Made by a program: the position numbers and the translations under genes. The notes under the pieces are model-generated. The model was given only the letters and a program-made list of their open reading frames with translations. It was not told where the DNA came from and did not search any database. This document shows, one piece after another, positions 7,527-36,085 of a DNA stretch of 64,000 nucleotides. The first letter of the stretch is position 1. Each line of letters starts with the position of its first letter. The stretch lies in the IMG/VR virus record IMGVR_UViG_3300008262_003982; one strand, given 5' to 3'. The stretch is from a virus. Its lineage: Duplodnaviria > Heunggongvirae > Uroviricota > Caudoviricetes.

Positions 7527-8249
7527 ATGAGAGATTATCTATTAGACTTAGTACAACACACACACGATCTTGGCTGCATTGATTTGATCAAGATTGTAGG
7601 CGATGACAAAGCCACACAAATTGTAGGCCTTGCTGAAGACATGAGCGTGGTTGTGGAAGGTGAATTCAAAAATCCACATCCAGACTTTGTGGGCACATTT
7701 GGCATGCCAAACTTGGCCAAGATCAAAATTCTGTTGAACTTGCAGGAGTACAAAGAAAACGCCAAACTCAGCTTGAGTCGCCGAGCAGGCGGCGAGCCAG
7801 ATGGCATCAAGTTTGAAAATGCCGCAGGCGATTTTCAAAACAACTATCGTTTCATGGCCGAAGCCATTGTGACTGAAAAACTCAAGACGCCCAAGTTCAA
7901 AGGTGTAAACTGGCACATTGAATTTGAACCCACTGTGGCTGCCATCCAACGCCTGCGTATGCAAGCACAGGCCAATGCTGAAGAACCACATTTCCAGGCC
8001 AAGACTGAAAACGGAGACTTGAAGTTTTTCTTTGGTGATCATAGCACACATGCTGGTAACTTTGTGTTCCACCCAGGTGTAAATGGTCAATTGAAACGTG
8101 CTTGGTCGTGGCCTGCTCAACAAGTCATGAGTATCCTGTCATTGACTGGGGACAAGACCGTTCGTATCAGTGATGATGGTGCTGCCAAGATCACGGTGGA
8201 TAGTGGCATTGCTGTTTACAATTATATCTTACCAGCACAAAGCAAGTGA
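7527..8249 (+). CDS. hypothetical protein (size and position compatible with a sliding clamp, unproven)
   Basis: 240 aa, AGGAG SD upstream, sits downstream of the polymerase. Only vague similarity to T4 gp45-type clamps. Confidence 0.4.
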   Translation: MRDYLLDLVQHTHDLGCIDLIKIVGDDKATQIVGLAEDMSVVVEGEFKNPHPDFVGTFGMPNLAKIKILLNLQEYKENAKLSLSRRAGGEPDGIKFENAAGDFQNNYRFMAEAIVTEKLKTPKFKGVNWHIEFEPTVAAIQRLRMQAQANAEEPHFQAKTENGDLKFFFGDHSTHAGNFVFHPGVNGQLKRAWSWPAQQVMSILSLTGDKTVRISDDGAAKITVDSGIAVYNYILPAQSK

Positions 8250-8250
8250 T

Positions 8251-9009
8251 ATGTTTAAAAAACCAACAGGACCTAAATTTGTTGATGATGGTGATCCGGC
8301 AGGACCTAACCAAGCTGGGAATGGACAAAGCTATTGCATTGTCAAAGATAATCCATCAAGATGTTTGATTTACGTTCACATTCCTAAAAATGCCAGCAGC
8401 TGGACCAAGCATCATACACCGGGATATTTGTTTAACTACCGTACACAAAAATTTTACGAAGATATTCCAACACAATACAATATCAACGTTTCAACATGGT
8501 CAGAACATTTACAGAATGCCCAGTATGCTGTGATACTTAGAGATCCTATCAATCGGTGGGTGACTGGACTAGCACAGTATCTGCAAGGATGGGATCCAGA
8601 ACATCCATTGCATATAAACAATGTTGATTGGGATATGATATTCGATACTGTAATGTTCGACAGTCACACTCAACCACAATGTGATTTTATTAAAGGTATC
8701 GATCATTCTAAGATCACTTGGTTACGGTGTGATGATGAGCTGGCCAAAAACTTTGGCAAGATGATGGAACAGTTTACTGGTACACCGTTTAATCTCACAA
8801 CAGAAGATCAAGATCCTACCAATGTGTTTAATATTACTAAAAAGATCAACCCCACAGTGACAGAATTGTTCACTACAGAGTTACAACAAAATATAGTAGA
8901 TCGTATCAATGAAAAACTTTCAAGCAATCCAGACTATCTAAATAGACTTCGCAGTTTCTATAAAGAGGACTGTGAACTATTTGAAACAGTAAACTTTTAC
9001 CAAGCATGA
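8251..9009 (+). CDS. sulfotransferase-like protein
   Basis: Internal ATG directly after the upstream stop. The HIPKNASSW segment resembles the 5'-PSB PAPS-binding loop of carbohydrate sulfotransferases. Confidence 0.35.
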   Translation: MFKKPTGPKFVDDGDPAGPNQAGNGQSYCIVKDNPSRCLIYVHIPKNASSWTKHHTPGYLFNYRTQKFYEDIPTQYNINVSTWSEHLQNAQYAVILRDPINRWVTGLAQYLQGWDPEHPLHINNVDWDMIFDTVMFDSHTQPQCDFIKGIDHSKITWLRCDDELAKNFGKMMEQFTGTPFNLTTEDQDPTNVFNITKKINPTVTELFTTELQQNIVDRINEKLSSNPDYLNRLRSFYKEDCELFETVNFYQA

Positions 9010-10544
9010 CCCAAGACGACTTAACTGCCAAGCAATCGGACTACGCTGTGTTCCTTCCGGCCATCAGCGGGTTCTATGCCACGTTCATAGGCAAGCAAAG
9101 GAATGAACCATATGTGGATCCGGCGAGATTGCCTCAGGGCCTTAGTGACATGGAGCAACTTAATTGGCTTAACTCTACCAAAGCACTTTTCCCTTACCGT
9201 TGGTCCCTATACTCTGGAGGGCATGCAAATCTCGATCTTGCTAAACAAGACTGGTCAGAAGACATGGTACGGAACAGAGAGCCTGGCACAATCATGCTGG
9301 GCGACTCTGGTGGTTTCCAGATTGCTAAAGGTGTGTGGGAAGGTGATTGGCGAGCCAACTCAGGTTGTGCCAAGGCTCAGGCCAAACGAGAACAAGCACT
9401 AGCCTGGTTAGATGGTATAGCAGACTATGCTATGACACTTGATATTCCAAGTTTTGTTATCAATGAAAAGAATGGATGGAAGTCTGGCATTAGCACTTTG
9501 GATGAGGCAGTCAAGGCAACACATTACAACAACGAATACTTCATGAAACATCGCAAGGGTGTGGCAAACGGTGGTACCAAGTTCTTGAATGTGTTGCAAG
9601 GTGGTAACCATACTCATGCAGAAGAATGGTATCAGATGATGAAGGATTATTGCGATCCACAAAAATATCCAGATACGCATTTCAATGGCTGGGCCATGGG
9701 CGGACAAAACATGTGTGATGTTCACTTGGTACTCAAACGTATTGTGGCATTGCGCTATGACAATTTACTTCAAGAAGGTGTCCATGATTGGATGCACTTC
9801 TTGGGAACCTCCAAACTGGAGTGGGCTGTTTTATTAACTGTAATCCAAAGGGCCGTGAGAAAATATGTCAATCCAAACTTCACAATCTCGTTTGACTGCG
9901 CCAGTCCGTTCCTTGCAACAGCAAACGGACAGGTCTACTTTGAAAATGTCTTTGAAAACAACTCAAAATGGTCGTATCGCATGGCTCCTACAGCCGACGA
10001 CAAAAAGTACGCCACTGACACACGTGCCTGGGGTACAAGTATAGTTGCCGATGGAGTAGTACCACGTTGGGAAGATAGCCCCATAAGCAAACTTCTCAAG
10101 ATGAAAGACATCTGTATCTACAAGCCAGGCGACCTAAATAAAAATGGTAAAGAAGGCAAGACATCGTGGGACAGTTTCTCATATGCTTTACTCATGGGCC
10201 ATAATGTCTGGATGCACTTGACCGCAGTACAAGAAGCCAATAGACGTTTTGATGCAGGAGAACATCCTGCCATGATGCGTCGTAGCACTGGTGACTATGC
10301 TTACTTTGAAGACATTGTGGAAGATATTTTCACTGCACCCACAAGAGAACAAGCCGAATCTATTGTTGAGAAATACAGTACATATTGGATGGAGATTGTG
10401 GGCACACGAGGCTTTAAGGGCAAGAAGACTGTGAATGCTACTACTCAATTCAATGCATTGTTTGAATATGAGGACAGTGAGTCGGAGCCCGACGAAGTAG
10501 ATTTGGACAGTGACAAATTGGACAACCTGAGCACAGAAATATAA
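9006..10544 (+). CDS. dpdA: tRNA-guanine transglycosylase-like protein (DpdA-like DNA 7-deazaguanine transglycosylase candidate)
   Basis: LGDSGGFQ (the TGT substrate-binding motif) and FDCASPF (catalytic Asp region, like TGT MFDCV). No CxCxxC zinc site, as in DpdA-type proteins. Confidence 0.6.
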   Translation: MTQDDLTAKQSDYAVFLPAISGFYATFIGKQRNEPYVDPARLPQGLSDMEQLNWLNSTKALFPYRWSLYSGGHANLDLAKQDWSEDMVRNREPGTIMLGDSGGFQIAKGVWEGDWRANSGCAKAQAKREQALAWLDGIADYAMTLDIPSFVINEKNGWKSGISTLDEAVKATHYNNEYFMKHRKGVANGGTKFLNVLQGGNHTHAEEWYQMMKDYCDPQKYPDTHFNGWAMGGQNMCDVHLVLKRIVALRYDNLLQEGVHDWMHFLGTSKLEWAVLLTVIQRAVRKYVNPNFTISFDCASPFLATANGQVYFENVFENNSKWSYRMAPTADDKKYATDTRAWGTSIVADGVVPRWEDSPISKLLKMKDICIYKPGDLNKNGKEGKTSWDSFSYALLMGHNVWMHLTAVQEANRRFDAGEHPAMMRRSTGDYAYFEDIVEDIFTAPTREQAESIVEKYSTYWMEIVGTRGFKGKKTVNATTQFNALFEYEDSESEPDEVDLDSDKLDNLSTEI

Positions 10545-10566
10545 TACTTTTATTTTAACAATTTGA

Positions 10567-10595
10567 TTGACTCAAAATTGTTCTTGTGTTATAGT
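10567..10595 (+). promoter_or_regulatory. sigma70-type promoter TTGACT-N17-TATAGT
   Basis: Read directly from the sequence, upstream of a TTG-start gene that has an AGGAG SD. Confidence 0.5.
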
Positions 10596-10619
10596 GTGTG
10601 CATTGTAACAACTTAGGAG

Positions 10620-11543
10620 TTGGTTTTGAATATTCAGAAACTACTTGCACAAGATCCCAACAAAGCCGTTCTAAAGGCTATAACGGCCGGTGTAAGATTA
10701 GCATTTATGGCCGGCGACTTGCGAAAATTTGCTAATCATGTTAAAGCCCGCACAATCGAAGAACTCAAAGAATATTGCTATTACAAAAGATTTTTCAATG
10801 GTGGTTTTGCCGCAGGACCTGAATATAACCAGGCGAGCATTTCTGGTGACACTGTGCATTGGAGTAATGGCGGTATCAGAAAATTTCATTCAGATGTTAT
10901 GGGATTACAACATGCTACCGGCAATAGCGGTACAGATCTAATCACTGGCAAGGCCATTGGAAGAATGCATGAGCTAGGGTTGGCCGGTTTATCAGGTGAT
11001 AACTTTGCCAATGAATGGCATTGCGAGCACACATATCCTATTAAACAAATTGAAAAAGATTTAATTCGAGAAGTGATCGAAAACAGCAGGAGAGTCAGCC
11101 CTAAAGACATGGCTAGATATGCAATGAATCATGCTTTAGCAACGACCGTTCATACGTCAGAAAGAACACACGGTGGTCCCACTACTAACGAAAATTTACG
11201 TCCGTTTGAAAAATATAACGACGGAGTGTTACAGTATGTTGACGGAAGATTCATTGACGTAACCAATGCAACAATACAAGAAGTAACCTATAATAGATGG
11301 AATCGTAATTCTTACTACAAGGAATTTATTTGCTTGTTTGAAGATCTTCCTGATTCAAATTTTGAAGATGTTAGGGAAGAAACAAAGCAGAGTCTCTACA
11401 ATATAACTCCTGGTTCGACAGAACGCAAGTTAATCGATTTGACTCCTGAAGCATTAGATGTATTGGCTCAAAATGATCCAATGGAAATTGCAACCAGATG
11501 GTGCCCTGATGCCTTCAAAGATCGTTGGAAAAAGAAGAAGTAA
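10620..11543 (+). CDS. hypothetical protein
   Basis: 307 aa, TTG start with AGGAG SD. Confidence 0.5.
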   Translation: MVLNIQKLLAQDPNKAVLKAITAGVRLAFMAGDLRKFANHVKARTIEELKEYCYYKRFFNGGFAAGPEYNQASISGDTVHWSNGGIRKFHSDVMGLQHATGNSGTDLITGKAIGRMHELGLAGLSGDNFANEWHCEHTYPIKQIEKDLIREVIENSRRVSPKDMARYAMNHALATTVHTSERTHGGPTTNENLRPFEKYNDGVLQYVDGRFIDVTNATIQEVTYNRWNRNSYYKEFICLFEDLPDSNFEDVREETKQSLYNITPGSTERKLIDLTPEALDVLAQNDPMEIATRWCPDAFKDRWKKKK

Positions 11544-11559
11544 CTCTTGCTTTCTCTCT

Positions 11560-11612
11560 CGTGATCCTGTATACTGTTAAATATGTATGCAGGATTTCTT
11601 TATAAGGCAACA
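11560..11612 (+). terminator. putative rho-independent terminator
   Basis: Inverted repeat TCCTGTATAC/GTATGCAGGA followed by a T-rich tract. Confidence 0.35.
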
Positions 11613-11614
11613 AC

Positions 11615-12592
11615 ATGGCACAACTATTTGATATCAACAACAAAAAACTAGTAACAAACCGCATAGGCAGGCAATATTGGATCTGGGACAATGACAAACT
11701 TTATGAACAGCGTATGGCAAGAGAAAACGGTCCATACCAGGCTCGCAATTTGGTAATGAATCGTCGCTTGCTACCTAATGCAAGAACTGTAATTGACATT
11801 GGTGGCAACATTGGCATGAACGCAATTGAATATGCCACCTGGTGCCAACATGTAAAAACCTTTGAGCCCATGCAGTCTAGCATGGAACTAATGAAACTCA
11901 ATGTAGACATTGCAAAAAATGCAAAACTTCAAGGTCGTTATTGGGATAGCAAACTGCAACAAGTAAGACATCAGCCGGATCGTCCAGATGGCTGGTTCAA
12001 GTTCCCCAATGGCACATTTGCCAGTCTTGACTTGATAGGAGAGATTGAGTTTTTTGAATATGCATTAGGTAAAGTCGCTGGAATTATTACCATGGAACAA
12101 AAAACCAACGAGTGCAGTCGCGGTGATGCTGTGTTACTTGATGGCAAAACTACCAACAATCCCACACAGACTGCAGAGCAACGCACACTTGACAGTTTTG
12201 GGTTTGAAAATGTTGATCTTATTAAGATTGATATTGAAGGTTCTGAACTGTTTGCATTAGAAGGTGCAACACAAACCATTGCTAAGTATCAACCCGTGGT
12301 TCAGGTCGAACTGCGAGATACACATTGTAAACGATTTGGGTACACTTGCAATGATATTATCAATCTTATGATGGGGTTAGGTGATTATGTGATGTGTGAT
12401 TTTAACGGCAATGACCTTGGTAAAAGTTATACCAAAGTATCTGGAGTTATGGATCGTTTCTTTGTGCCAAGATCAATTTTTGATGCTACTGAATTTAAAA
12501 ATAAAAAGGTACACCCTGGCATGAAAAAAACTAAGACAGACAAAAAAGCAAACAACAAACATTTATCTAACTTATTTGAGATTACATTATGA
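11615..12592 (+). CDS. FkbM-family SAM-dependent methyltransferase
   Basis: Motif I VIDIGGNIGMN and the FkbM-typical KIDIEGSE. Confidence 0.6.
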   Translation: MAQLFDINNKKLVTNRIGRQYWIWDNDKLYEQRMARENGPYQARNLVMNRRLLPNARTVIDIGGNIGMNAIEYATWCQHVKTFEPMQSSMELMKLNVDIAKNAKLQGRYWDSKLQQVRHQPDRPDGWFKFPNGTFASLDLIGEIEFFEYALGKVAGIITMEQKTNECSRGDAVLLDGKTTNNPTQTAEQRTLDSFGFENVDLIKIDIEGSELFALEGATQTIAKYQPVVQVELRDTHCKRFGYTCNDIINLMMGLGDYVMCDFNGNDLGKSYTKVSGVMDRFFVPRSIFDATEFKNKKVHPGMKKTKTDKKANNKHLSNLFEITL

Positions 12593-13122
12593 ATAGACCC
12601 GGACACGAAGATACCAATTTCTTTGTAGGTACAGAAGTTGAGGCCAGTCCTGTAGCCGGTCACCGTACATTGTTTGTGGTCGGACTGCAAGATGCAGATC
12701 AAATCATGTGGCAACTGGGTGAGTCAGACCACAAGAGTAAAAATCCAATCACACACATCTACTTTGGCGCCAATCAAAGTTTTCCAAACCCCACTATGAA
12801 CGATGCTGGAGTCTGGACTGCCTGGGAACAGATGATTCAACCGTGGCTGGATCGAGGATACTGGTGTACCTTGGATCTTGATTCAAGTGCTGTGGAAGGA
12901 TTGTGCGAAGGTAGCTTGTGCGAACAAGCACAATTTGTTCCTATGATTTCAGTGAAACTGCCTTATATTAAACTGCTAGGCTACAATGCCACTATCAAGC
13001 TAGACGACAAAGATTTCAAAGCAACCAACCCAGGAGTATGGTGTCACAGCCTGCATGACTTGCTGGATAGAAAAACATTTACCTCTTGGGACCAATACAC
13101 AAAGGATGAAGTAATCAAATGA
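12589..13122 (+). CDS. hypothetical protein
   Basis: 177 aa ORF with an ATGA overlap. Confidence 0.5.
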   Translation: MNRPGHEDTNFFVGTEVEASPVAGHRTLFVVGLQDADQIMWQLGESDHKSKNPITHIYFGANQSFPNPTMNDAGVWTAWEQMIQPWLDRGYWCTLDLDSSAVEGLCEGSLCEQAQFVPMISVKLPYIKLLGYNATIKLDDKDFKATNPGVWCHSLHDLLDRKTFTSWDQYTKDEVIK

Positions 13123-13562
13123 TACAAGATGAACGTGAACAAATTGAAAGAATCAAATATGCCGCACAAAGAAGAATCTGGGTTACCTTCCAAAAAGAAG
13201 GCATCCACTTCTACCCCGCAGCCGCAACAGATCCAGCCCTTAAGACGGGCGATGAGTATGATGTTAGTTTCCTTGGTACTCCTCACCGTCATATCTTCCA
13301 CTTCCGGGTGTGGATTGATGTTGTACACAATGATCGAGACATTGAATTCATCCAGTTCAAACGATGGCTACAAAAACTCTACGAGTCAGGAACCGTCCAA
13401 CTCGACTACAAGTCATGTGAAATGATGTCAGACGATTTGTATTTGCAAATTGCCGCACGGTATCCAGAACGCTCAGTCTGGATTGAGGTCTCCGAAGATG
13501 GTGAAAACGGAGCTCTTATTAAGTATGAAACTCACCGCCCTAGTATTAACATTGCTATCTAA
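13119..13562 (+). CDS. hypothetical protein
   Basis: 147 aa ORF with an ATGA overlap. Confidence 0.5.
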   Translation: MIQDEREQIERIKYAAQRRIWVTFQKEGIHFYPAAATDPALKTGDEYDVSFLGTPHRHIFHFRVWIDVVHNDRDIEFIQFKRWLQKLYESGTVQLDYKSCEMMSDDLYLQIAARYPERSVWIEVSEDGENGALIKYETHRPSINIAI

Positions 13563-13573
13563 TAGGAAACAAA

Positions 13574-13801
13574 ATGGCAAAAATCGCTATTAAATCTAAC
13601 CCACGTGTGGCCGAGCTCTTTGAGCATCTTGAGCACTTCCAGGAGTTCTGCCAAGACTACGGTTATCGTTACAACGAAGCCGATTTGTATAACTTTAAGA
13701 GTTATGCCTGGCAGCAGTTCAACAAGTTTTCACAAGGCAAGAATGCCAAGAACATGTGGGACGAAGACACTCGTCGCTTTGCCGGAGCATTTCGTAACTA
13801 A
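13574..13801 (+). CDS. hypothetical small protein
   Basis: 75 aa ORF with an SD-like GGAAACAAAATG. Confidence 0.45.
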   Translation: MAKIAIKSNPRVAELFEHLEHFQEFCQDYGYRYNEADLYNFKSYAWQQFNKFSQGKNAKNMWDEDTRRFAGAFRN

Positions 13802-13808
13802 GTGGCTG

Positions 13809-14516
13809 ATGAAAAAATTTACATACACTGGACCAAGTTGGGCGGCATCTAGTTGGCCGCTGGATGTACCAACAACTAATCTTGCCAAGGAATGGGGGTT
13901 TGAGTTCTATGACCATGCTCAATCTGGAACTAGTGTGTTGGGAAGTTATATTAGATTGGTACGATCGCCTAATGTACCTGTAATTTGGATCTATAATGAA
14001 CCTATTTTGTGTTTACAAGATGCAACTAAGTTAACTTTCAAAGAATTTATTCAGCGTTCAGACTGGAAAGATATTTGGGAAGAATGCAATCAATTTTGTC
14101 TGAACAAAATCAACAGTTTAAATAAACCTGTGTTGTTAATTGGAGCACACAGTGACATTGTTAATTGCAATTATCCAAACATTACTATAGGACATCTTTC
14201 CTGGCAAAAATTTCTAGCAGACAAAGCCGGAATGACTATTAATAATGGGTCGGTTTGTGTTATACTAAACGATGGCACAGAATTTGATATGCATCATTGT
14301 TGGGGTGCTGAAGTTATACACAGGTTCATGCACGAAACCCCTAACATCGATCCAGAACCAAGTTTGGTAGACAGTGTGTGGGACACATTCTTTTTTTGGA
14401 AACAACTTGAAACACAAGATTTGTTCAACAATGTTCATCCAAACTTCAAAGGCAATGTACTGTTTGCAGAACATTTAAAACCCACAGTGATAAAATTTTT
14501 ACAGGAACATCAATGA
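13809..14516 (+). CDS. hypothetical protein (possible SGNH-like hydrolase paralogue)
   Basis: Internal ATG at 13809 right after the upstream stop. 236 aa. Confidence 0.4.
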   Translation: MKKFTYTGPSWAASSWPLDVPTTNLAKEWGFEFYDHAQSGTSVLGSYIRLVRSPNVPVIWIYNEPILCLQDATKLTFKEFIQRSDWKDIWEECNQFCLNKINSLNKPVLLIGAHSDIVNCNYPNITIGHLSWQKFLADKAGMTINNGSVCVILNDGTEFDMHHCWGAEVIHRFMHETPNIDPEPSLVDSVWDTFFFWKQLETQDLFNNVHPNFKGNVLFAEHLKPTVIKFLQEHQ

Positions 14517-15727
14517 GAAAACTATTTTACATGGGCTTGGAAAGTTATGAAGCCCGCTACACACTACAACTCACAGAGTGGAATCGACGTGTGTTTGACC
14601 GCAGAGGTCTTGATGTTGTGTATGTGCCTGGCACTACAATTGACAACACACAAGCTATCTCAGTAGGTCAAGTGTTAGACGCACACGGACGCAGTTTCTT
14701 TGCCATGAGCCAAATGATGAACTTGGTTCAGCTCATGAAGAACGGCGATGTTACCGGTGACGATGTGATCTACTTTGAAGACATGTTCCAGCCGGGCTTT
14801 GAAAGCCTTGGTTACATCATGAATCAGATTCCACAAGAACAATGTCCAAAGATTTATGTTCGTTGTTTGGCACAGGCCATTGATCCTGATGACTTTGTGC
14901 ATGTGTGGGGTATGGCAAAGTGGATGAACTTGTATGAACAAATGGTCAATGAGATGGTGGCTTTCTCGGGGGGTGCAGTATTGGCTACCAATGAAGAAAT
15001 GGTCGCGCACATGCGCATCGCTGGATGGACTGCTCCAATCTACAACATTTCCGGTCTGGCATTTGGAAAATCAGAGGTTCTGGAAAGAATTGGCGGTACA
15101 GAGAATATCACGCCGTTTGCTGAAAGACCGAGACGAGTGGGTTTTGCAGCCCGTTTCGATCAGGAAAAACAACCTGGATTCTTCATGGACCTTATTGAGA
15201 TGTATGGTGAGCTTACCTCCGAACCGTGTGAGTTTGCAATATACAGTGGCGGACCTCTCCGATCCAACAATCCAGACTATATTGAACGTGCCCTCCGTAT
15301 GGAGGCAGAAGGCAAGCTCAAGATCTACGACAATATAAGCAAGAATGAATACTATAGTCATCTCAACAATACTCGTGTGTTGTTTAATTGTGCTTTACAA
15401 GATTGGGTTTCAAACACCGTATCAGAGGCCGATACTGTTGGATGCAATGTGCTATATCCAGCGTATCGCAGTTTTCCTGAAACCTTCGCGAACGATCCCA
15501 ATAGACTGTATATTCCCTGGAGCATAGATGATGCTTATCACAAAATGCAAAACCTACTTCGCGAGCCGCACCACAACATGGGACTTATTTCAGATTGGAA
15601 CAATGCCACTGTGGATCGCGTTATTGATATTATTAGTGGTAGCGGTGAGCAATGGAATAGAGCGGGCAACCGCTATCGTGACCACGCTTCTCACGAAAAA
15701 TATCAAGTTGTAAAGATTGAAAAATGA
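14513..15727 (+). CDS. hypothetical protein (possible glycosyltransferase)
   Basis: 404 aa ORF in the sugar-enzyme block. No firm motif. Confidence 0.4.
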   Translation: MRKLFYMGLESYEARYTLQLTEWNRRVFDRRGLDVVYVPGTTIDNTQAISVGQVLDAHGRSFFAMSQMMNLVQLMKNGDVTGDDVIYFEDMFQPGFESLGYIMNQIPQEQCPKIYVRCLAQAIDPDDFVHVWGMAKWMNLYEQMVNEMVAFSGGAVLATNEEMVAHMRIAGWTAPIYNISGLAFGKSEVLERIGGTENITPFAERPRRVGFAARFDQEKQPGFFMDLIEMYGELTSEPCEFAIYSGGPLRSNNPDYIERALRMEAEGKLKIYDNISKNEYYSHLNNTRVLFNCALQDWVSNTVSEADTVGCNVLYPAYRSFPETFANDPNRLYIPWSIDDAYHKMQNLLREPHHNMGLISDWNNATVDRVIDIISGSGEQWNRAGNRYRDHASHEKYQVVKIEK

Positions 15728-16686
15728 TTGTAATTGTAACTGGATCAGCCGGGTACATTGGTGGTCAGACCATGCTGGCATTGAAAGATGCCGGGCATGA
15801 AGTATACGGCATTGATCGCAGACAGCCTCCTGAACATCTTAGAGGTGTGCCCGATGGATTCTTGTATCAGGACTTTGCAAGTGATGTAGCACTGAGTTGG
15901 ATCATACAAAAGCAACCCAATGCTATCATTCATTGTGCTGGCACCAGCCTTGTGGGGCCTTCAGTACAGAACCCTTCAGAATACTACAACAACAATGTGG
16001 CCAAAACATTGAAGTTGTTGGATATTGTTAAACAAAGCATGCCTCGTTGTAGATTGGTGTTTTCAAGTTCAGCAGCCACATACGGTGAGCCCGTCATGAA
16101 TCCCATACATGAAGTGGATCCCAACGAACCTGTTAGTCCTTATGGCGAATCTAAACTGATGATTGACATGATGCTGGAAAGCTATCACCGGGCATACGGT
16201 CTTGACTATGTTAGTTTTCGCTATTTCAATGCATGTGGTGCAGACCCCAAAGGCAGGCATGGTCAAGAGCCTGGTGCCACACATATTATTGCTAGAGTGC
16301 TTGAAAGCATAAGGGATCAAAAAGATTTTGTGTTAAACGGAAACGATTTCCCCACTGAGGATGGTACATGTGTGCGTGATTACGTGCATGTGGATGATAT
16401 TGCCCGGGCCCACGTTCTGGCGTTATATCACAAAATCCCTGCGGGCGTTTACAATCTTGGCTCCAGCATGGGCACAAGCAATCACGGCATTATTGAAGCC
16501 GCACTTGATGAAACACAACAACCATTGAATGTTGTTGTTGGCAAGCGTAGAGCCGGTGACCCTCCTGTACTTACTGCCAGTTCAGAAAAGTTTAATTTGA
16601 TAGCAGGAGCATGGCGTCATTATGAGCTAGATGACATGATTCAACACGCATGGAACTGGTATGTTCGACAAGATAAAAAAGTTTGA
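15724..16686 (+). CDS. galE: NAD-dependent epimerase/dehydratase (UDP-glucose 4-epimerase-like)
   Basis: N-terminal Rossmann motif VTGSAGYIGG and the catalytic YGESK (YxxxK). Confidence 0.75.
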   Translation: MIVIVTGSAGYIGGQTMLALKDAGHEVYGIDRRQPPEHLRGVPDGFLYQDFASDVALSWIIQKQPNAIIHCAGTSLVGPSVQNPSEYYNNNVAKTLKLLDIVKQSMPRCRLVFSSSAATYGEPVMNPIHEVDPNEPVSPYGESKLMIDMMLESYHRAYGLDYVSFRYFNACGADPKGRHGQEPGATHIIARVLESIRDQKDFVLNGNDFPTEDGTCVRDYVHVDDIARAHVLALYHKIPAGVYNLGSSMGTSNHGIIEAALDETQQPLNVVVGKRRAGDPPVLTASSEKFNLIAGAWRHYELDDMIQHAWNWYVRQDKKV

Positions 16687-17257
16687 AGAAGAACTAGCAG
16701 AGTTCACAGGAGCACCGTATGCAATCATGACTGATTGCTGTACACATGCCATTGAACTTTGCTTGCGATATGATCGAGTACGAGCTTGTAAGTTTACACC
16801 TTACACTTATTTGAGCATTCCTATGACCATGCACAAGTTAGGCATTCACTATGTCTATCACGATATTGACTGGCAGCATTGGGAAGGCGAGTATGAATTC
16901 ACTTACACTAGAATTTGGGACTCAGCTCGCAGATTGGAACAGGATATGTATCGGCCAGGCACCATGCAGTGTTTGAGTTTTGGACATACAAAGCCATTGG
17001 CTATTGGGCATGGTGGTGCTATATTGTTGGATGATAAAAAAGCATATGAAACCATATTGCGCCAACGCTATGATGGCAGAGACTTGACTGTGGCACCTTG
17101 GCAGGACCAAAAGACATTTCATGTGGGCTATCACTACAAGCCCAGTATTGAAGATGCCATTCAAGGTGTGGCATTGCTACAAGGTGTCAAGGAACACAAT
17201 CCTAAACCTGTGTATGTGCCATATCCTGATCTAAGAAATATCAAGATTGTTGAATGA
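16661..17257 (+). CDS. DegT/DnrJ/EryC1-like N-terminal domain protein (truncated aminotransferase-like)
   Basis: FEEELAEFTGAPYAIMTDCCTHAIELCL resembles the N-terminal segment of DegT-family sugar aminotransferases. Only 198 aa. Confidence 0.3.
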   Translation: MFDKIKKFEEELAEFTGAPYAIMTDCCTHAIELCLRYDRVRACKFTPYTYLSIPMTMHKLGIHYVYHDIDWQHWEGEYEFTYTRIWDSARRLEQDMYRPGTMQCLSFGHTKPLAIGHGGAILLDDKKAYETILRQRYDGRDLTVAPWQDQKTFHVGYHYKPSIEDAIQGVALLQGVKEHNPKPVYVPYPDLRNIKIVE

Positions 17258-18255
17258 AGTGGTTTAGTTTTTCAAGACGCAATCTTGTGCATTATGGTGC
17301 ATTGCACATGGCACAATGGTATCTTGATAACCCTGGTCCTAGAGTAGAACAAGATTTAGCAACCAGCGGAATGTCACGAGCCGACTTGCACGGCAAAAAA
17401 CTCATAGTAGATTTTAGAGCCGAAGGCCAGTGTGACAAAGTGATCGGCAATCTAATTACGTATTTGCAAACACTACCAGTTGAAGATATCCTGGTGGTAT
17501 TCAACGCTGTGGTTGACGTTGATGGCCTTTCGTACAAAGCACTGTCGCAACCTACTTTTCTAACAAATTTTGCCGGTTGGTTTGATCGTCTTGATGCGTC
17601 TGGTGCCGCTACTGGCATTGACACAAAGTTTTTGTGTTTGATTCGTAGGCCCAGTATAAGTCGTGCTAGACTTGCTGCTGGGTTGACGGACATCTCTAGT
17701 GTCAGACTCAGCTTTGGTAGCATGGGTGCCAATAACATTACCAACGAATACCGAGAAATTATACCAAGAGAATTGCCGCTGTTGTTGGATGGGATTGTGG
17801 AACGATCAACTGGGCTAGAACATGACCAAACCAACAGCATGTTCAAAACCTGCATGTTCAATATTGTTGCAGAGTCTGGCAGTCAGTCTGATGTTGGCGT
17901 GTGGCGCAGTCATTTTATCAGTGAAAAAACATTCAAGGCATTTGGCTTGAGACAAATTCCAATTTGGTTTGCAGTTCCTGGTCTGGTTGCTGAAGTGCGT
18001 AAACTGGGGTTTGATGTGTTTGATGACATTGTCACACACAGTTATGACAACATCACAGATGAAGATCAGAGATTACATGCTGTGCTGAAAGAAATACACA
18101 GGCTAGATCAATTGACTGTGGGACAATGTTGTGAGTTAAAACAACAGTTGTCCACACGCATTGAAAACAACTATAATCTGTTGAGAGAATATGCACGAGA
18201 CGTAGATGCTTGGTACAGCCGCGTGGAAACAGAGTTTGATAAGAATGATTCATAG
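17254..18255 (+). CDS. hypothetical protein, member of a 3-gene paralogue family (C-terminal LGFDxFDDxVxHSYD motif)
   Basis: C-terminal similarity to 32939..33898(-) and 36086..37201(-). Confidence 0.5.
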   Translation: MKWFSFSRRNLVHYGALHMAQWYLDNPGPRVEQDLATSGMSRADLHGKKLIVDFRAEGQCDKVIGNLITYLQTLPVEDILVVFNAVVDVDGLSYKALSQPTFLTNFAGWFDRLDASGAATGIDTKFLCLIRRPSISRARLAAGLTDISSVRLSFGSMGANNITNEYREIIPRELPLLLDGIVERSTGLEHDQTNSMFKTCMFNIVAESGSQSDVGVWRSHFISEKTFKAFGLRQIPIWFAVPGLVAEVRKLGFDVFDDIVTHSYDNITDEDQRLHAVLKEIHRLDQLTVGQCCELKQQLSTRIENNYNLLREYARDVDAWYSRVETEFDKNDS

Positions 18256-18916
18256 ACTTGCTATTTTAGGAGACAGTTGGGCATATGGTGCAGAACTTGA
18301 GCCAGGCGAAAAATCATTTGGCCAGATCATTGGTGACCGTTTGAATGTGACCAGTGTGGATAATGTTGCAGTACCTGGATCCAGCATTCCTCACACAGTG
18401 TTGCAACTCAAAGGCTTTTTAGACAAGTACCGCACTGAAAGAGAAAATCCAGACAATAGGTACACTGTATTGGTGTTTTTGACTTCTCAACAACGTCACA
18501 TGACCTGGCATGATCGGCTGGTACATTTGCAACCCAACGGAGTGGCTGTGCCCAATGCCAATCCCACAGAACACAATCTAAACGAATTGTATTACAAGTA
18601 TTTTTCTAGCGATGCCGCACACGATTATGCTGTGAACACTGCTATCTTGACTGTGCAAGGAATTTGCAGAGAAGCCAGGGTAAATGCACTATTTGTTGCT
18701 GGCTGGCAAAAGATAAAATTTTGGTCTGAAGTAGACACTAGATACATGTATGAGAATGGCAAGGTAACTTGTGCTGACATACTGGGAGTGAAATTTACCA
18801 GTATGGAACGAGGACATGAATTGTTTAGCAGTAGTGGTGGCCATCCCAATCAACTGGGCCATCAAGTTATAGCAGATAGGTTAATTAGATGGGTCACAAA
18901 TCAATTAATCTATTGA
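18245..18916 (+). CDS. SGNH/GDSL-like hydrolase
   Basis: N-terminal LAILGDSWAYG (GDS block I). Confidence 0.45.
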   Translation: MIHRLAILGDSWAYGAELEPGEKSFGQIIGDRLNVTSVDNVAVPGSSIPHTVLQLKGFLDKYRTERENPDNRYTVLVFLTSQQRHMTWHDRLVHLQPNGVAVPNANPTEHNLNELYYKYFSSDAAHDYAVNTAILTVQGICREARVNALFVAGWQKIKFWSEVDTRYMYENGKVTCADILGVKFTSMERGHELFSSSGGHPNQLGHQVIADRLIRWVTNQLIY

Positions 18917-36084: not shown

Positions 36085-36085
36085 G

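What the first reader, a model, noticed from the sequence alone, without database searches (positions are those of the whole stretch)
8251..18916. Sugar/sulfate/methyl-modifying enzyme block directly following the DpdA-like gene
Downstream of dpdA there is a run of: a sulfotransferase-like protein, an FkbM methyltransferase, a GalE-type epimerase, a DegT-like fragment, two SGNH-like proteins and several unknown proteins of about 300–400 aa. Elsewhere in the deazaguanine neighbourhood there is a cytidylyltransferase (28425), a B12-radical SAM enzyme (24309), a HIT-like protein (21145), a NeuD acetyltransferase (61356) and three paralogous LGFDxFDD-motif proteins. This could encode further decoration of the modified base, for example a glycosylated, sulfated or methylated 7-deazaguanine. 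Alternatively it could encode a nucleotide-sugar pathway for modifying a host surface glycan. Either would be a new combination.
Basis: inference. Interest (0 to 1): 0.65.

Follow-up and report, generated by a model that had tools for sequence, protein, structure and literature searches.

The report
Glycosyltransferase-linked deazaguanine DNA-modification island
In this large phage, the genes that replace guanine in DNA with a 7-deazaguanine base are interleaved with a glycosyltransferase and sugar-tailoring enzymes, and because that glycosyltransferase sits beside the same DNA-modification genes in every related locus surveyed in several phage lineages, it predicts a sugar-bearing deazaguanine in phage DNA that I could not find reported.

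Summary
The block is real, but its anatomy needed correcting. The DpdA-like gene is 9006-10544, inside the block; its model has a tRNA-guanine-transglycosylase fold. The gene upstream (7527-8249) is the sliding clamp. The unknown at 14513 is a retaining GT-B (GT4-like) glycosyltransferase. GalE is genuine. The DegT-like protein is a conserved short form.

Across 46 related metagenomic loci the backbone is DpdA, 177-aa protein, DpdL, GT, GalE, DegT-like, FolE. The sulfotransferase-like, FkbM, 307-aa, 235-aa, 333-aa and SGNH-like genes are rare accessories, though several recur in the same slots.

When the GT alone is used as the probe, 40 of 40 loci carry DpdL and a DpdA, with DpdL directly upstream in the 40 gene orders printed. 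With DpdL as the probe, the GT is present in all 13 loci with the window-type DpdA and in none of 9 loci with phiST-type DpdA3. Cultured phages PA5oct, ACP17, BUDD/X1, BUCT-ZZ01 and Phosso share the module.

The best reading is a glycosylated 7-deazaguanine hypermodification with variable sugar tailoring. The chemistry and the acceptor atom are unproven. I found no report of it. Nucleoside LC-MS on PA5oct or ACP17 DNA would decide it.

The parts
7527..8249 (+). Sliding-clamp homolog. This is context: it marks the left border of the module and is not DpdA.
   Evidence: BLASTP 29% identity, 3e-35 to the Phosso protein annotated 'DNA polymerase III sliding clamp beta'. phrog_12062. The PolB-clamp-DpdA order is conserved.
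8251..9009 (+). Sulfotransferase-like accessory protein (ATG at 8251; the ORF lister extends it to a GTG at 8170).
   Evidence: Pfam Sulfotransfer_2 E 1.8e-4, 22.1 bits against a cutoff of 22. Distant homologs (25-32% identity) are present in 11 related loci, always in the clamp-DpdA slot. They occur in 8 of 46 complete intervals.
9006..10544 (+). DpdA-like DNA-guanine transglycosylase of a divergent subfamily ('window type').
   Evidence: AlphaFold2 model has pLDDT 86 and pTM 0.88. All top 10 PDB matches are tRNA-guanine transglycosylases (E 8e-7 to 2e-3, prob 1.00). D100-S-G-G-F-Q, D146 and S295-x-D297 are invariant in 74 homologs. hhalign gives 87.5% probability to the BUDD/BUCT-ZZ01 DpdA type. 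There is no Pfam, NCBIfam, PADLOC or PDB sequence hit.
10620..11543 (+). Accessory protein of 307 aa, function unknown.
   Evidence: No hit in Pfam, PHROGs, NCBIfam, PADLOC or the PDB. Found in 0 of 46 complete intervals. One 25%-identical counterpart sits in the same slot in L025.
11615..12592 (+). FkbM-family methyltransferase (accessory).
   Evidence: Pfam Methyltransf_21 1.1e-16, TIGR01444 8e-16. Found in 0 of 46 complete intervals. One 95%-identical copy sits in the same DpdA-u177 slot in L025.
12589..13122 (+). Conserved 177-aa partner protein ('u177'), fold unknown.
   Evidence: Present in 44 of 46 related intervals. Also present in the marine lineage and, just upstream of dpdA, in Acidovorax phage ACP17 (7e-39). 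No family or PDB hit. The 'Cake' matches are repeat artefacts.
13119..13562 (+). DpdL, a QueD/PTPS paralog proposed to be a 7-carboxy-7-deazaguanine decarboxylase.
   Evidence: It carries the published DpdL signature LxxxHRHxF ('LGTPHRHIF'). It is homologous to phiST CGPG_00067 (DpdL), 32.5% identity, 3e-9. phrog_17812 7e-36.
13574..13801 (+). Conserved 75-aa protein between DpdL and the GT.
   Evidence: ORF listing. A 72-81-aa ORF occupies this slot in most relatives.
13809..14516 (+). Accessory 235-aa protein.
   Evidence: No family hit. The ORF start was corrected. Homologs (28-58% identity) lie in the same DpdL-GT slot in 3 loci and downstream of FolE in a fourth. It is not similar to 18206.
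14513..15727 (+). Retaining-type GT-B (GT4-like) glycosyltransferase, the obligate neighbour of DpdL.
   Evidence: The model (pLDDT 78.7) matches BshA, MshA, glycogen synthase, sucrose-phosphate synthase and PimA at E 1e-11 to 1e-8. Its homologs hit Pfam Glycos_transf_1 (BUDD 6.8e-12; the 64%-identical BUCT-ZZ01 protein just above cutoff). R214, E218, K219 and E305 are invariant in 63 sequences. For the synteny.
15724..16686 (+). UDP-glucose 4-epimerase GalE.
   Evidence: TIGR01179 3e-84, 282.7 bits against a cutoff of 262.3. Pfam Epimerase 3e-54. Present in 40 of 46 intervals.
16661..17257 (+). Short (198 aa) DegT/DnrJ/EryC1-like protein.
   Evidence: Pfam 2.4e-16 in two stretches. PseC and WecE models match weakly. 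By eye, 'SFGHTK' keeps the Schiff-base lysine context. Present in 40 of 46 intervals at a constant length.
17254..18255 (+). Accessory 333-aa protein of the 'LGFDxFDD' family, a possible GT10-like glycosyltransferase.
   Evidence: Paralogs lie at 32939-33898(-) and 36086-37201(-). The family profile's only PDB matches are two GT10 fucosyltransferases, aligned at the ...E...(T/S)EK... motif, but the E-values are 0.44 and 1.2. No Pfam hit. A homolog is in the same slot in L074, and others lie between the GT and DegT-like genes in L077 and L017.
18206..18916 (+). Weak SGNH/GDSL-like accessory protein.
   Evidence: Lipase_GDSL_2 3.3e-4 (21.6 bits against 32.9) and Lipase_GDSL 6.5e-4 (20.3 against 23.6). 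'GDSWAYG' is visible by eye. Found in 0 of 82 related loci.
18984..19676 (+). GTP cyclohydrolase I (FolE), which marks the right border of the plastic interval.
   Evidence: Pfam 2.8e-39.
22314..22781 (+). QueD (6-carboxytetrahydropterin synthase).
   Evidence: Pfam PTPS 5.4e-15.
24309..26291 (+). B12-binding radical SAM C-methyltransferase (KedN5-like). In some relatives it lies between GalE and the DegT-like gene.
   Evidence: Pfam B12-binding plus Radical_SAM. NF033712 1.8e-76, below its cutoff. For its positions in L041 and L078.
27008..27853 (+). QueE-like 7-carboxy-7-deazaguanine synthase.
   Evidence: Five QueE NCBIfam models match at 1e-10 to 3e-14, all below their cutoffs. 31-47% identity to the annotated QueE of PA5oct, BUCT-ZZ01 and BUDD.
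28305..28901 (+). RfaE-domain-II-like sugar-phosphate nucleotidyltransferase. It lies between GalE and the DegT-like gene in L072.
   Evidence: Pfam CTP_transf_like 2.9e-12. TIGR02199 1.7e-24, below its cutoff. Position.

Best explanation
The block is the variable middle of a 7-deazaguanine DNA-hypermodification island. FolE, QueD and QueE make 7-carboxy-7-deazaguanine. DpdL processes it; its proposed role is decarboxylation to 7-deazaguanine. The divergent DpdA-like transglycosylase exchanges the base for guanine in phage DNA. The GT4-like glycosyltransferase, which is always encoded next to DpdL, adds a sugar to the deazaguanine, either on the free base before insertion or on the DNA afterwards. 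The sugar is probably drawn from a UDP-hexose pool that the phage GalE interconverts. The DegT-like protein and the lineage-variable enzymes then tailor that sugar, so related phages would carry different glyco-deazaguanines. In this phage the variable enzymes are the sulfotransferase-like protein, FkbM, the 235-aa, 307-aa, GT10-like 333-aa and SGNH-like proteins, the B12-radical SAM enzyme and the nucleotidyltransferase.

Shown: the folds and families of DpdA-like, DpdL, GT and GalE, and the conserved linkage between them.
Inferred: that the GT's acceptor is the deazaguanine, the identity of the sugar, the order of steps, and any role for the accessory enzymes.
For: 1. The anchor genes are real.
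- The DpdA-like protein has a TGT fold with invariant catalytic-type motifs.
- DpdL carries the published signature.
- FolE, QueD and QueE are present.
- No QueC or QueF relative was detected in the window.

2. The GT is a catalytically plausible GT-B enzyme. Its fold neighbours (BshA, MshA, sucrose-phosphate synthase, PimA, BH4 glucosyltransferase) are the same ones reported for the DLP3 and RB69 DNA arabinosyltransferases, two of which (DLP3 gp76/gp77) are marked as experimentally confirmed (PMC13326640).

3. The linkage is exclusive.
- All 12 isolate-phage records with a detectable homolog belong to three groups (BUCT-ZZ01, PA5oct-like phages, Xanthomonas BUDD/X1). In one inspected record of each group the homolog lies in a dpdA/dpdL cluster.
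- An HMM adds ACP17 and Phosso.
- The GT slot is filled in 46 of 46 intervals of this lineage.
- With the GT as the only probe, 40 of 40 IMG/VR loci with at least 5 kb on each side have DpdL and a DpdA. DpdL lies directly upstream of the GT in the 40 gene orders printed (L103 shows a second arrangement as well).

4. The GT co-varies with the transglycosylase type. With DpdL as the probe in genome contigs, the GT is present in 13 of 13 loci with the window-type DpdA and in 0 of 9 loci with DpdA3 (Fisher p = 2e-6, not corrected for phylogeny). phiST has DpdA3, has no GT in the 12-kb region fetched around its cluster, and is measured to contain plain dDG.

5. GalE overlaps the GT stop codon. GalE and the DegT-like gene are kept in 40 of 46 intervals. 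Extra tailoring enzymes are inserted between them in relatives: rSAM-SPASM, B12-rSAM, nucleotidyltransferase and the u333 family.

6. Accessory genes recur in fixed slots, or move, but remain inside the module in the loci where they were found.

7. PA5oct DNA resists several restriction enzymes with G-containing sites, and nucleases that sense hypermodified DNA target the phage. The modification itself is unidentified (PMC12191111).

8. ACP17 dpdA plus dpdL alone gave no dDG in E. coli, and the authors suspected missing enzymes (PMC10516641). The GT and u177 lie in that same ACP17 cluster.
Against: - There are no chemical data for any GT-carrying phage.
- If DpdL is a decarboxylase, the base is 7-deazaguanine. 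It has no hydroxyl, amine side chain or carboxyl at C7 for a normal O-glycosylation. An N2-, C- or hydroxylation-dependent linkage has to be assumed.
- The GT family and the DpdA-like proteins are both acidic (pI 5.1-6.4). Neither T4 DNA glucosyltransferase is among the top 50 PDB matches. Nothing therefore points specifically to DNA as the acceptor.
- Most surveyed loci belong to one broad clade that shares the PolB-clamp-DpdA order, so the counts are not independent events.
- The window-specific accessory genes are absent even from 90%-identical relatives such as L009.
- Other sugar genes lie far from the block: 32939-37201 on the other strand, and 61278.
- GalE plus a DegT-like enzyme, without a 4,6-dehydratase, is not a canonical amino-sugar pair.
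Confidence: 0.4

Rival explanations
1. Only the conserved core (DpdA-like, u177, DpdL, GT, perhaps GalE and the DegT-like gene) belongs to the deazaguanine pathway. The window-specific genes (sulfotransferase-like, 307-aa, FkbM, 235-aa, 333-aa, SGNH-like) are unrelated cargo that accumulated in a recombination-prone stretch of the replication module. They may act on host or virion glycans.
For: The accessory genes occur in 0 to 8 of 46 complete intervals. The interval length ranges from 4.7 to 12.2 kb with insertions at many points. The closest relative, L009, lacks them. FkbM is 95% identical in L025 while its neighbour is only 25% identical, which suggests recent exchange. u333 paralogs and other sugar genes also lie outside the interval. 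The window holds many metabolic cargo genes of other kinds, such as a porin, desaturases and TauD enzymes.
Against: The sulfotransferase-like gene is old (25-32% identity) yet sits in the clamp-DpdA slot in all 11 loci that have it. Homologs of the 235-aa, 333-aa and FkbM/307-aa genes reuse the same slots. The B12-rSAM, nucleotidyltransferase and u333 genes are found between GalE and the DegT-like gene in other relatives. Of the ten inserted gene families scanned, seven had domain hits and all seven were small-molecule-tailoring types; none was a typical moron or homing-endonuclease gene.
Confidence: 0.25
2. The whole sugar set, GT included, builds or remodels a glycan on the host envelope or on virion proteins. 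Its position beside dpdA and dpdL reflects shared early or middle expression rather than shared chemistry.
For: GT4 enzymes, GalE, DegT-like enzymes, FkbM, sulfotransferases, SGNH esterases and RfaE-like nucleotidyltransferases are typical of O-antigen and capsule loci (general knowledge). JGI names some homologs 'glycosyltransferase involved in cell wall biosynthesis'. The GT is acidic.
Against: This reading does not explain several observations. The GT subfamily was seen only next to DpdL and DpdA, in 40 of 40 GT-probed loci. It is present in 13 of 13 window-type DpdA loci and in none of 9 DpdA3 loci. The DpdL-GT pair persists in unrelated genome backbones: a T4-like cyanophage, Busanvirus, Xanthomonas phages, and contigs of Methylobacterium isolate assemblies. 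No flippase, polymerase or lipid-carrier glycosyltransferase was seen among the ORFs that were scanned against Pfam.
Confidence: 0.1
3. DpdL and the GT make a soluble glycoside of a deazapurine or pterin that is not incorporated into DNA. Possible analogies are cyanobacterial biopterin glucosides or, from my own recollection rather than anything checked here, glycosylated preQ0 antibiotics. Such a product could serve as an inhibitor, a cofactor or a storage form.
For: The nearest solved folds are small-molecule glycosyltransferases. UDP-glucose:tetrahydrobiopterin glucosyltransferase is among the matches (rank 47, E 2e-8). T-fold enzymes bind free pterins and purines (PMC10516641). FolE and a PTPS-like enzyme are also the first steps of pterin synthesis.
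Against: The pair co-varies with the DNA transglycosylase subtype and is embedded between the clamp, DpdA and QueE. The same fold neighbours are reported for DNA glycosyltransferases of other phages. PA5oct DNA is demonstrably modified at G.
Confidence: 0.1
4. The GT-fold protein does not transfer a sugar to the base at all. It could be a structural or regulatory partner of DpdA and DpdL, or act on another DNA base or on the sugar-phosphate backbone, so that the final base is plain dDG as in phiST.
For: dDG is the only product measured for a DpdL phage. In the window and BUCT-ZZ01 branch the first Glu of the EX7E motif is Asp. The window protein itself does not reach Pfam significance.
Against: The donor-binding and catalytic positions R214, E218, K219 and E305 are invariant in 63 diverse homologs. 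A bona fide GalE is translationally coupled to it. phiST-type phages make dDG without this protein.
Confidence: 0.1

Closest known systems
The phiST-type 2'-deoxy-7-deazaguanine (dDG) system: FolE, QueD, QueE, DpdL, DpdA3 (Cui et al. 2023, PMC10516641)
   Same: It has the same precursor genes and the same DpdL family with the LxxxHRHxF signature. It has no QueC. A divergent TGT-fold transglycosylase sits next to DpdL, in the replication gene neighbourhood.
   Different: The transglycosylase here is a different, larger subfamily (512-596 aa) that my DpdA3 HMM does not detect. A GT4-like glycosyltransferase, a 177-aa partner and, in this lineage, GalE and a DegT-like gene are added. The phiST type has no GT in the region examined.
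Glycosylated pyrimidines in phage DNA: T4 glucosyl-5hmC and the arabinosyl-5-hydroxycytosine of RB69 and DLP3 (PMC13326640)
   Same: The phage encodes GT-B glycosyltransferases with the same fold neighbours (BshA, MshA, sucrose-phosphate synthase, PimA, BH4 glucosyltransferase). It also encodes its own nucleotide-sugar supply genes, clustered with the base-modification genes.
   Different: Those systems glycosylate a hydroxyl on a pyrimidine that is made at the nucleotide level by a thymidylate-synthase homolog. Here the partner pathway makes a deazapurine that is inserted by base exchange. No hydroxyl handle is evident, and no sequence similarity to those GTs was detected.
Bacterial Dpd system and the phage DpdA1/DpdA2 systems (dPreQ0, dADG, dG+, dPreQ1)
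   Same: A TGT-superfamily enzyme exchanges guanine in DNA for a 7-deazaguanine made from GTP by FolE, QueD and QueE.
   Different: No QueC, QueF, Gat-QueC, ArcS, DpdB or DpdC was found in the window. There is no PADLOC or Pfam TGT hit. A DpdL plus GT branch takes their place.
Glycosylated queuosine in eukaryotic tRNA (galQ, manQ), and glycosylated preQ0 natural products such as huimycin and dapiramicin (my own knowledge, not checked here)
   Same: They are precedents for glycosyltransferases that use a 7-deazaguanine derivative as acceptor.
   Different: In those cases the acceptor is a cyclopentenediol hydroxyl on tRNA, or the exocyclic N2 of a free base. None of them is in DNA, and no homology was tested.
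Cyanobacterial UDP-glucose:tetrahydrobiopterin alpha-glucosyltransferase (PDB 5ze7)
   Same: It is a GT4-fold enzyme that acts on the product of a FolE plus PTPS pathway, and it appears among the structural matches (rank 47).
   Different: It is one of 315 matches with E of 0.001 or less and is not specially close. That pathway has no QueE or transglycosylase.

Membership tests
TGT/DpdA superfamily (9006-10544) | TIM-barrel tRNA-guanine-transglycosylase fold | tested here: met
   The AF2 model has pLDDT 86. All top 10 PDB Foldseek matches are TGTs, prob 1.00, TM-score normalised to the target 0.35-0.58.
TGT/DpdA superfamily (9006-10544) | Catalytic Asp in a DSGGFQ-type motif, and a second Asp in the (I/F)S(F/Y)D position corresponding to the TGT nucleophile | tested here: inconclusive
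   D100-S-G-G-F-Q, D146 and D297 are invariant in 74 homologs and align with the BUDD/BUCT-ZZ01 DpdA motifs. Residue-level equivalence to the Z. mobilis TGT residues D102 and D280 (numbering from memory) was not checked by superposition.
TGT/DpdA superfamily (9006-10544) | Match to the curated sequence models (Pfam PF01702 TGT, NCBIfam, PADLOC DpdA) | tested here: not met
   No hits. A profile search against PDB sequences also found nothing. Membership therefore rests on fold and motifs only.
TGT/DpdA superfamily (9006-10544) | Exchange of guanine in DNA for a 7-deazaguanine base | not testable with these tools
   This needs biochemistry or LC-MS.
DpdL (13119-13562) | QueD paralog in which the CxxxHGH motif is replaced by LxxxHRHxF | tested here: met
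   'LGTPHRHIF' is present. H56, H58 and F60 are invariant in the six-member family alignment A5. The motif definition comes from PMC10516641.
DpdL (13119-13562) | Homology to phiST CGPG_00067 and ACP17 DpdL | tested here: met
   tblastn gives 55% identity to ACP17 (1e-39) and 32.5% to phiST (3e-9).
DpdL (13119-13562) | Occurs with DpdA, FolE, QueD and QueE but without QueC | tested here: met
   All four are present in the window. No QueC or QueF was found by Pfam scans of the larger ORFs or by BLAST with phage QueC/QueF-like queries. Only 64 kb of the genome is visible.
DpdL (13119-13562) | CDG decarboxylase activity | not testable with these tools
   The activity is also unproven in the literature; heterologous tests failed.
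GT-B retaining glycosyltransferases, GT4-like (14513-15727) | Two-Rossmann-domain GT-B fold | tested here: met
   The model has pLDDT 78.7. 315 PDB matches have E of 0.001 or less, led by glycogen synthase, BshA and MshA, with TM-scores up to about 0.7.
GT-B retaining glycosyltransferases, GT4-like (14513-15727) | Match to Pfam Glycos_transf_1 or Glyco_trans_1_4 | tested here: inconclusive
   The window protein has no hit at E of 0.01 or less. The 64%-identical BUCT-ZZ01 homolog is just above cutoff (28.3 against 27). The BUDD homolog scores 6.8e-12.
GT-B retaining glycosyltransferases, GT4-like (14513-15727) | Donor-binding R/K pair and the EX7E motif | tested here: met
   R214, E218, K219 and E305 are invariant in 63 sequences. 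Most homologs have E-x7-E; the window and BUCT-ZZ01 branch has D-x7-E.
Phage DNA glucosyltransferases of the T4 type (alpha-GT and beta-GT) | Specific structural or sequence similarity to T4 AGT or BGT | tested here: not met
   Neither is in the top 50 PDB matches. One viral protein annotated 'DNA alpha-glucosyltransferase' appears only at rank 43 of the BFVD search.
UDP-glucose 4-epimerase GalE (15724-16686) | Score above the curated equivalog cutoff | tested here: met
   TIGR01179 scores 282.7 bits against a cutoff of 262.3.
DegT/DnrJ/EryC1 sugar aminotransferases (16661-17257) | Full-length fold-type-I PLP domain of about 360 aa with the catalytic Lys | tested here: inconclusive
   The protein is only 198 aa and matches profile positions 24-98 plus a second stretch. 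The Lys context 'SFGHTK' is present by eye. The length is conserved in relatives.
Sulfotransfer_2 (8251-9009) | Pfam match above the gathering score, and PAPS-binding motifs | tested here: inconclusive
   22.1 bits against a cutoff of 22, E 1.8e-4. The motifs were judged by eye only.
FkbM methyltransferases (11615-12592) | Match to Pfam PF05050 and TIGR01444 above cutoff | tested here: met
   61.8 bits against 22.7, and 58.8 bits against 37.7.
SGNH/GDSL hydrolases (18206-18916 and 13809-14516) | Pfam match above cutoff and the conserved sequence blocks | tested here: not met
   18206 scores 21.6 against 32.9 and 20.3 against 23.6. 13809-14516 has no hit. The two are not similar to each other.
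GT10 fucosyltransferase-like (17254-18255, 32939-33898, 36086-37201) | Significant profile or fold match to GT10 | tested here: inconclusive
   The only PDB profile matches are two GT10 enzymes, aligned at their signature motif, but the E-values are 0.44 and 1.2. No Pfam hit in 10 family members.

The most novel reading that the evidence does not exclude
Phages carrying the DpdA (non-DpdA3) / DpdL / GT4-like module replace guanine with a glycosylated 7-deazaguanine. To my knowledge that would be the first glycosylated purine analogue found in any genome. Because 7-deazaguanine lacks a side-chain handle, the linkage would be unusual: a C-glycoside at C7 or C8, an N2-glycoside, or an O-glycoside after hydroxylation. 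The sugar would be diversified between close relatives by epimerisation, amination, C- and O-methylation, sulfation, acylation and extension, producing a hypervariable 'DNA O-antigen'. The window phage would carry a sulfated and/or methylated version.
Probability: 0.3. Interest if true: 0.9.

Novelty: new variant of a known kind. Interest (0 to 1): 0.72.

Why it matters
Seven-deazaguanine DNA modifications are a well-studied anti-restriction strategy. All eight derivatives described in the 2023 survey I read are small, and I found no report of a sugar-bearing one.

This analysis shows that a dedicated glycosyltransferase is an obligate neighbour of DpdL and a non-DpdA3 transglycosylase in very abundant freshwater and marine phage lineages; each of the two searches with a glycosyltransferase of this family filled its 8,000-candidate limit with significant matches. 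The same module is present in culturable phages, including PA5oct, ACP17, BUDD/X1, BUCT-ZZ01 and Phosso.

This gives a concrete candidate for three open points:
- what the unidentified G modification of PA5oct-like therapeutic phages is;
- why ACP17 dpdA plus dpdL could not be reconstituted in E. coli;
- what decides the split between DpdA3 and the other DpdL-associated transglycosylases.

If the sugar is real, purines join pyrimidines as glycosylated DNA bases. It would also show natural-product-style sugar tailoring applied to DNA. That would bear on restriction and END-nuclease evasion, on sequencing bias, and on enzymatic tools for DNA glyco-labelling. All three points are directly testable by LC-MS on phages already in culture.

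Tried and rejected
- **Near-identical DNA in isolate phages:** none found, so the phage itself is known only from metagenomes.
- **Sequence-only identification of the DpdA-like protein:** this failed in Pfam, NCBIfam, PADLOC, a PDB phmmer search and a PDB profile search. Only profile-profile comparison and structure prediction resolved it.
- **Vibrio phage 2.275.O gp469 as a GT homolog:** rejected. It shows no similarity and instead has a weak Amidoligase_2 hit.
- **Phosso 'glycosylase' gp222 as a homolog of the 177-aa protein:** rejected.
- **PDB profile search for the 177-aa family:** it returned only designed 'Cake' repeat proteins, built from many 3-bit repeats. I treat these as artefacts.
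- **PDB search for the 307-aa protein:** nothing found.
- **The two 'SGNH-like' proteins as paralogs:** rejected.
- **23443 as a member of the LGFDxFDD family:** rejected.
- **Isoelectric points as a hint of DNA binding:** uninformative. Both the GT and the DpdA-like proteins are acidic.
- **Fold neighbours as a way to tell a DNA acceptor from a small-molecule acceptor:** uninformative. Known and proposed DNA glycosyltransferases of other phages have the same neighbours.
- **A nine-sequence GT alignment as a probe for IMG/VR:** too divergent to give a search pattern. A six-sequence subset worked.
- **Literature searches for a glycosylated deazaguanine in DNA, or for the GT next to dpdA:** no report found. 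The library is incomplete, so this does not prove absence.
- **AsnB-like enzyme (34543-36084, minus strand) as a CDG-to-ADG amidotransferase:** considered but not pursued. It is flanked by u333 paralogs, which fits sugar-carboxylate amidation equally well.

Full report
**What the window is.** All large ORFs from 82 to about 32 kb are co-directional, and GC content is even at 0.39-0.48. There is no near-identical isolate phage. The family-B DNA polymerase (3892-6552) is 51% identical to that of Sinorhizobium jumbo phage Phosso and 42-47% identical to those of Atu_ph07, Vibrio phage 2.275.O and Rak2-like phages. Related metagenomic contigs reach 240-350 kb. The window is therefore part of a jumbo, or at least large, myovirus-like genome known only from metagenomes.

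**Checking the observation.** Family scans gave the following results.
- FkbM (11615-12592) and GalE (15724-16686) are solid. GalE scores above the TIGR01179 equivalog cutoff.
- The DegT-like protein (16661-17257, 198 aa) is real.
- The sulfotransferase-like protein (8251-9009) sits exactly at the Pfam threshold.
- The GDSL match of 18206-18916 is below threshold.
- The other 'SGNH' has no support. Its 303-aa ORF runs over a conserved 75-aa gene in another frame, so the real gene is probably 13809-14516.
- The gene ending at 8249 is the sliding clamp.
- The DpdA-like gene is 9006-10544, inside the block.

**The DpdA-like protein.** It contains GDSGGFQ but matches no curated model and no PDB sequence, even as a profile. 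Its isolate-phage homologs are hypothetical proteins of PA5oct-like Pseudomonas jumbo phages (36% identity), Phosso and Vibrio phage 2.275.O. I built an alignment of 74 diverse homologs. It gave an AlphaFold2 model with pLDDT 86 and pTM 0.88. All ten best PDB matches are tRNA-guanine transglycosylases, with E from 8e-7 and probability 1.00. D100-SGGFQ, D146 and S295-x-D297 are invariant. hhalign links the family at 87.5% probability, through the same motifs, to the protein annotated 'queuine tRNA-ribosyltransferase' in Xanthomonas phage BUDD and to its BUCT-ZZ01 homolog. I therefore accept it as a divergent DpdA-type transglycosylase. The basis is fold and motifs, not curated models.

[quoted passage not shown] In phiST the match is CGPG_00067. 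Cui et al. named that protein DpdL: a QueD paralog with CxxxHGH changed to LxxxHRHxF, proposed to decarboxylate 7-carboxy-7-deazaguanine to 7-deazaguanine (PMC10516641). The window protein reads LGTPHRHIF.

The window also encodes FolE (18984), QueD (22314) and QueE (27008). I found no QueC or QueF. That is exactly the gene set described for DpdL phages. In phiST, all G is replaced by dDG.

**The unknown at 14513 is a glycosyltransferase.**
- tblastn finds it in only 12 isolate records: BUCT-ZZ01 (64% identity), nine PA5oct-like phages and two Xanthomonas phages.
- The BUDD homolog hits Pfam Glycos_transf_1 at 6.8e-12, and the BUCT-ZZ01 homolog is just above cutoff.
- A model built on 63 sequences (pLDDT 78.7) matches retaining GT-B enzymes: glycogen synthase, BshA, MshA, GlgM, sucrose-phosphate synthase and PimA, at E 1e-11 to 1e-8.
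- R214, E218, K219 and E305 are invariant.
- Most members have the EX7E motif; the window branch has D-x7-E.
- In BFVD the second-best match is the ACP17 'Glycosyl transferase family 1' protein.

**Synteny in cultured phages.**
- PA5oct: PolB, clamp-like gp314, gp316 (DpdA-like), gp317 (GT), gp318 (DpdL), then QueE and RNase H.
- BUDD: FolE, a QueC-like gene, the GT, DpdA, DpdL, QueE.
- BUCT-ZZ01: QueE, QueD, FolE, a second GT, DpdA, DpdL, the GT.
- Phosso: PolB, clamp, a 177-aa protein, DpdL, 'glycosyltransferase', FolE, QueE, with the DpdA-like gene elsewhere in the genome.
- ACP17: QueD, FolE, u177, DpdA, GT (HMM 2.5e-83), DpdL, QueE.

**Population survey of the window's own lineage.** Using DpdL as a probe in IMG/VR, plus two metagenomic contigs, gave 82 related loci. 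Of these, 46 contain the whole DpdA-FolE interval.

| Gene | Present in the 46 intervals |
|---|---|
| DpdL | 46 |
| GT | 42 close homologs plus 4 divergent ones in the same slot |
| u177 | 44 |
| GalE | 40 |
| DegT-like | 40 |
| Sulfotransferase-like | 8 |
| 13605 gene | 2 |
| 333-aa protein | 1 |
| FkbM, 307-aa protein, 18206 | 0 |

The interval ranges from 4.7 kb (DpdA, DpdL, GT, FolE) to 12.2 kb. Ten inserted gene families were scanned against Pfam. Seven had hits: three to radical SAM families, and one each to an ADH-like enzyme, a GFO/IDH/MocA oxidoreductase, an AMP-binding enzyme and DUF6071. A B12-radical SAM gene is also inserted in some relatives.

The accessory genes are not placed at random.
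- The sulfotransferase-like gene, at only 25-32% identity, is in the clamp-DpdA slot in all 11 loci that have it.
- L025 repeats the order DpdA, 307-like, FkbM, u177.
- Homologs of 13809-14516 sit between DpdL and the GT in three loci.
- u333 homologs sit after the DegT-like gene, or between the GT and the DegT-like gene.
- The B12-rSAM and the RfaE-like nucleotidyltransferase lie beyond FolE in the window, but between GalE and the DegT-like gene in other relatives.

**Is the GT-DpdL link exclusive?**
- A search with PA5oct gp317 shows that the GT family is very large and includes Tara Oceans sequences.
- Three abundant marine contigs show the same order, with 2OG-Fe(II) oxygenases and a phosphoribosyltransferase interleaved.
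- I probed IMG/VR with the GT alone, using an alignment headed by the ACP17 protein. Of the 40 loci with at least 5 kb on both sides, 40 have DpdL, 40 have a DpdA, 39 have FolE and 36 have QueE. DpdL lies directly upstream of the GT in the 40 gene orders printed; L103 also shows a second arrangement.
- I probed 185,579 species genomes with DpdL and obtained 30 loci. Most are phage contigs binned into MAGs. They also include contigs of Methylobacterium isolate assemblies and a 3.2-Mb alphaproteobacterial contig.
- Among those loci, 13 with the window-type DpdA all carry the GT, while 9 with the phiST-type DpdA3 all lack it. In eight of those nine, dpdA3 directly follows dpdL in the slot the GT otherwise fills. 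Fisher p is 2e-6.

These counts are inflated by shared ancestry. Even so, the DpdL-GT pair is kept in at least five different genome backbones.

**Interpretation.** The GT is part of the deazaguanine system, and the split by DpdA subtype suggests that the sugar matters for what the transglycosylase handles or produces. GalE is translationally coupled to the GT (15724 overlaps the stop at 15727), which points to a UDP-hexose or UDP-HexNAc donor. The conserved short DegT-like protein and the inserted tailoring enzymes resemble natural-product sugar tailoring.

Phage-encoded nucleotide-sugar pathways combined with GT4-like DNA glycosyltransferases have a precedent in the arabinosyl-5-hydroxycytosine of RB69 and DLP3. 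The GTs of those phages have the same fold neighbours as this one (PMC13326640, compared).

Two experimental loose ends fit this reading.
- PA5oct DNA resists several restriction enzymes with G-containing sites and is sensed by nucleases specific for hypermodified DNA, but its modification is unidentified (PMC12191111).
- ACP17 dpdA plus dpdL gave no dDG in E. coli.

**What remains weak.**
- No chemistry exists for any GT-carrying phage.
- If DpdL yields plain 7-deazaguanine, there is no conventional acceptor group. An N2-, C7/C8- or post-hydroxylation linkage, or a different role for DpdL, must be assumed.
- Neither the fold neighbours nor the charge distinguish DNA from a free base or another small molecule as the acceptor.
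- The 333-aa family's GT10-like character rests on non-significant matches at a signature motif.

**Verdict.** The core of the block is a conserved dpdA / u177 / dpdL / GT / galE / degT-like module that I could not find described in the literature. It most likely makes a glycosylated 7-deazaguanine. The window-specific sulfo-, methyl- and acyl-type genes are plausible but unproven tailoring steps.

Noticed in passing
window 13574-13801 and 13605-14516: The 303-aa ORF is an over-extension. Its N-terminal ~68 aa overlap, in another frame, a conserved 75-aa gene that lies between dpdL and the GT in most relatives. The accessory gene probably starts at the ATG at 13809.
   Followed up: yes
window 32939-37201 (mostly minus strand): This is a second sugar-like cluster. 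Two paralogs of the 333-aa 'LGFDxFDD' protein flank an asparagine-synthase-like glutamine amidotransferase (34543-36084) and a weak ParB-N-like ORF (33897-34613, plus strand). The amidotransferase could amidate a sugar carboxylate, or convert CDG to ADG.
   Followed up: partly
window 19673-20083: A small (136 aa) HhH-GPD/EndoIII-like protein lies next to FolE. It is present in 4 relatives, once between u177 and DpdL (L017). Host END nucleases use inactive EndoIII domains to sense hypermodified bases, so this protein could be a repair enzyme, a decoy or a processing factor.
   Followed up: partly
window 22799-23419; L005 12844-13473: The phage encodes a Vut_1-family membrane transporter inside the deazaguanine cluster. 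From memory, this family includes YhhQ-type importers of queuosine precursors. The same family is found in Vibrio phage 2.275.O and in four relatives.
   Followed up: no
window 40968-63513: This stretch is dense with metabolic cargo: an SPFH protein, two fatty-acid-desaturase-like proteins, a Gram-negative porin, a truncated ketoacyl-synthase-like protein, a radical SAM enzyme, two TauD-family dioxygenases, a hexapeptide acetyltransferase and an Asp/Arg-hydroxylase-like protein. The dioxygenases could in principle create a hydroxyl handle on the base.
   Followed up: no
L094-L097 (marine contigs, including Tara samples): A very abundant marine lineage keeps the order PolB, clamp, DpdA-like, u177, DpdL, GT. 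It interleaves two 2OG-Fe(II) oxygenases, a phosphoribosyltransferase and a HIT protein, and has a short SDR between PolB and the clamp.
   Followed up: partly
L005 10723-11835 (Vibrio phage 2.275.O): Where DpdL and the GT are absent and QueF and a QueC-like gene are present, the gene after the DpdA-like gene has a weak Amidoligase_2 match. This suggests a different elaboration, such as an amide-linked group, in that phage.
   Followed up: no
L025 5226-7200: FkbM is 95% identical to the window copy, while the adjacent 307-aa-like gene is only 25% identical. This suggests recent exchange of the methyltransferase cassette between related phages.
   Followed up: no
L196, L198, L199 (Methylobacterium isolates); L200 (3.18-Mb alphaproteobacterial contig): The DpdA-like, DpdL and GT genes occur on contigs of bacterial isolate assemblies and on a 3.18-Mb contig of an alphaproteobacterial MAG. 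The module may therefore also reside in prophages or other resident elements.
   Followed up: no
L092 4212-5363 (Vibrio phage Bakedbeans gp176): The DpdL-like sequence forms the C-terminal part of a 383-aa annotated protein, so it may be a DpdL fusion. Neither a GT nor a DpdA was detected within 5 kb.
   Followed up: no
L003 5010-6353 (Synechococcus phage BUCT-ZZ01): A second, unrelated GT1-family glycosyltransferase (447 aa) lies directly upstream of dpdA, and an annotated xanthine-guanine phosphoribosyltransferase sits between QueE and QueD.
   Followed up: no
window 6489-7493: A conserved 334-aa protein lies between PolB and the clamp (65 of 82 relatives). It has no family assignment apart from a weak PADLOC PDC-M14B match (E 9e-4).
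   Followed up: no
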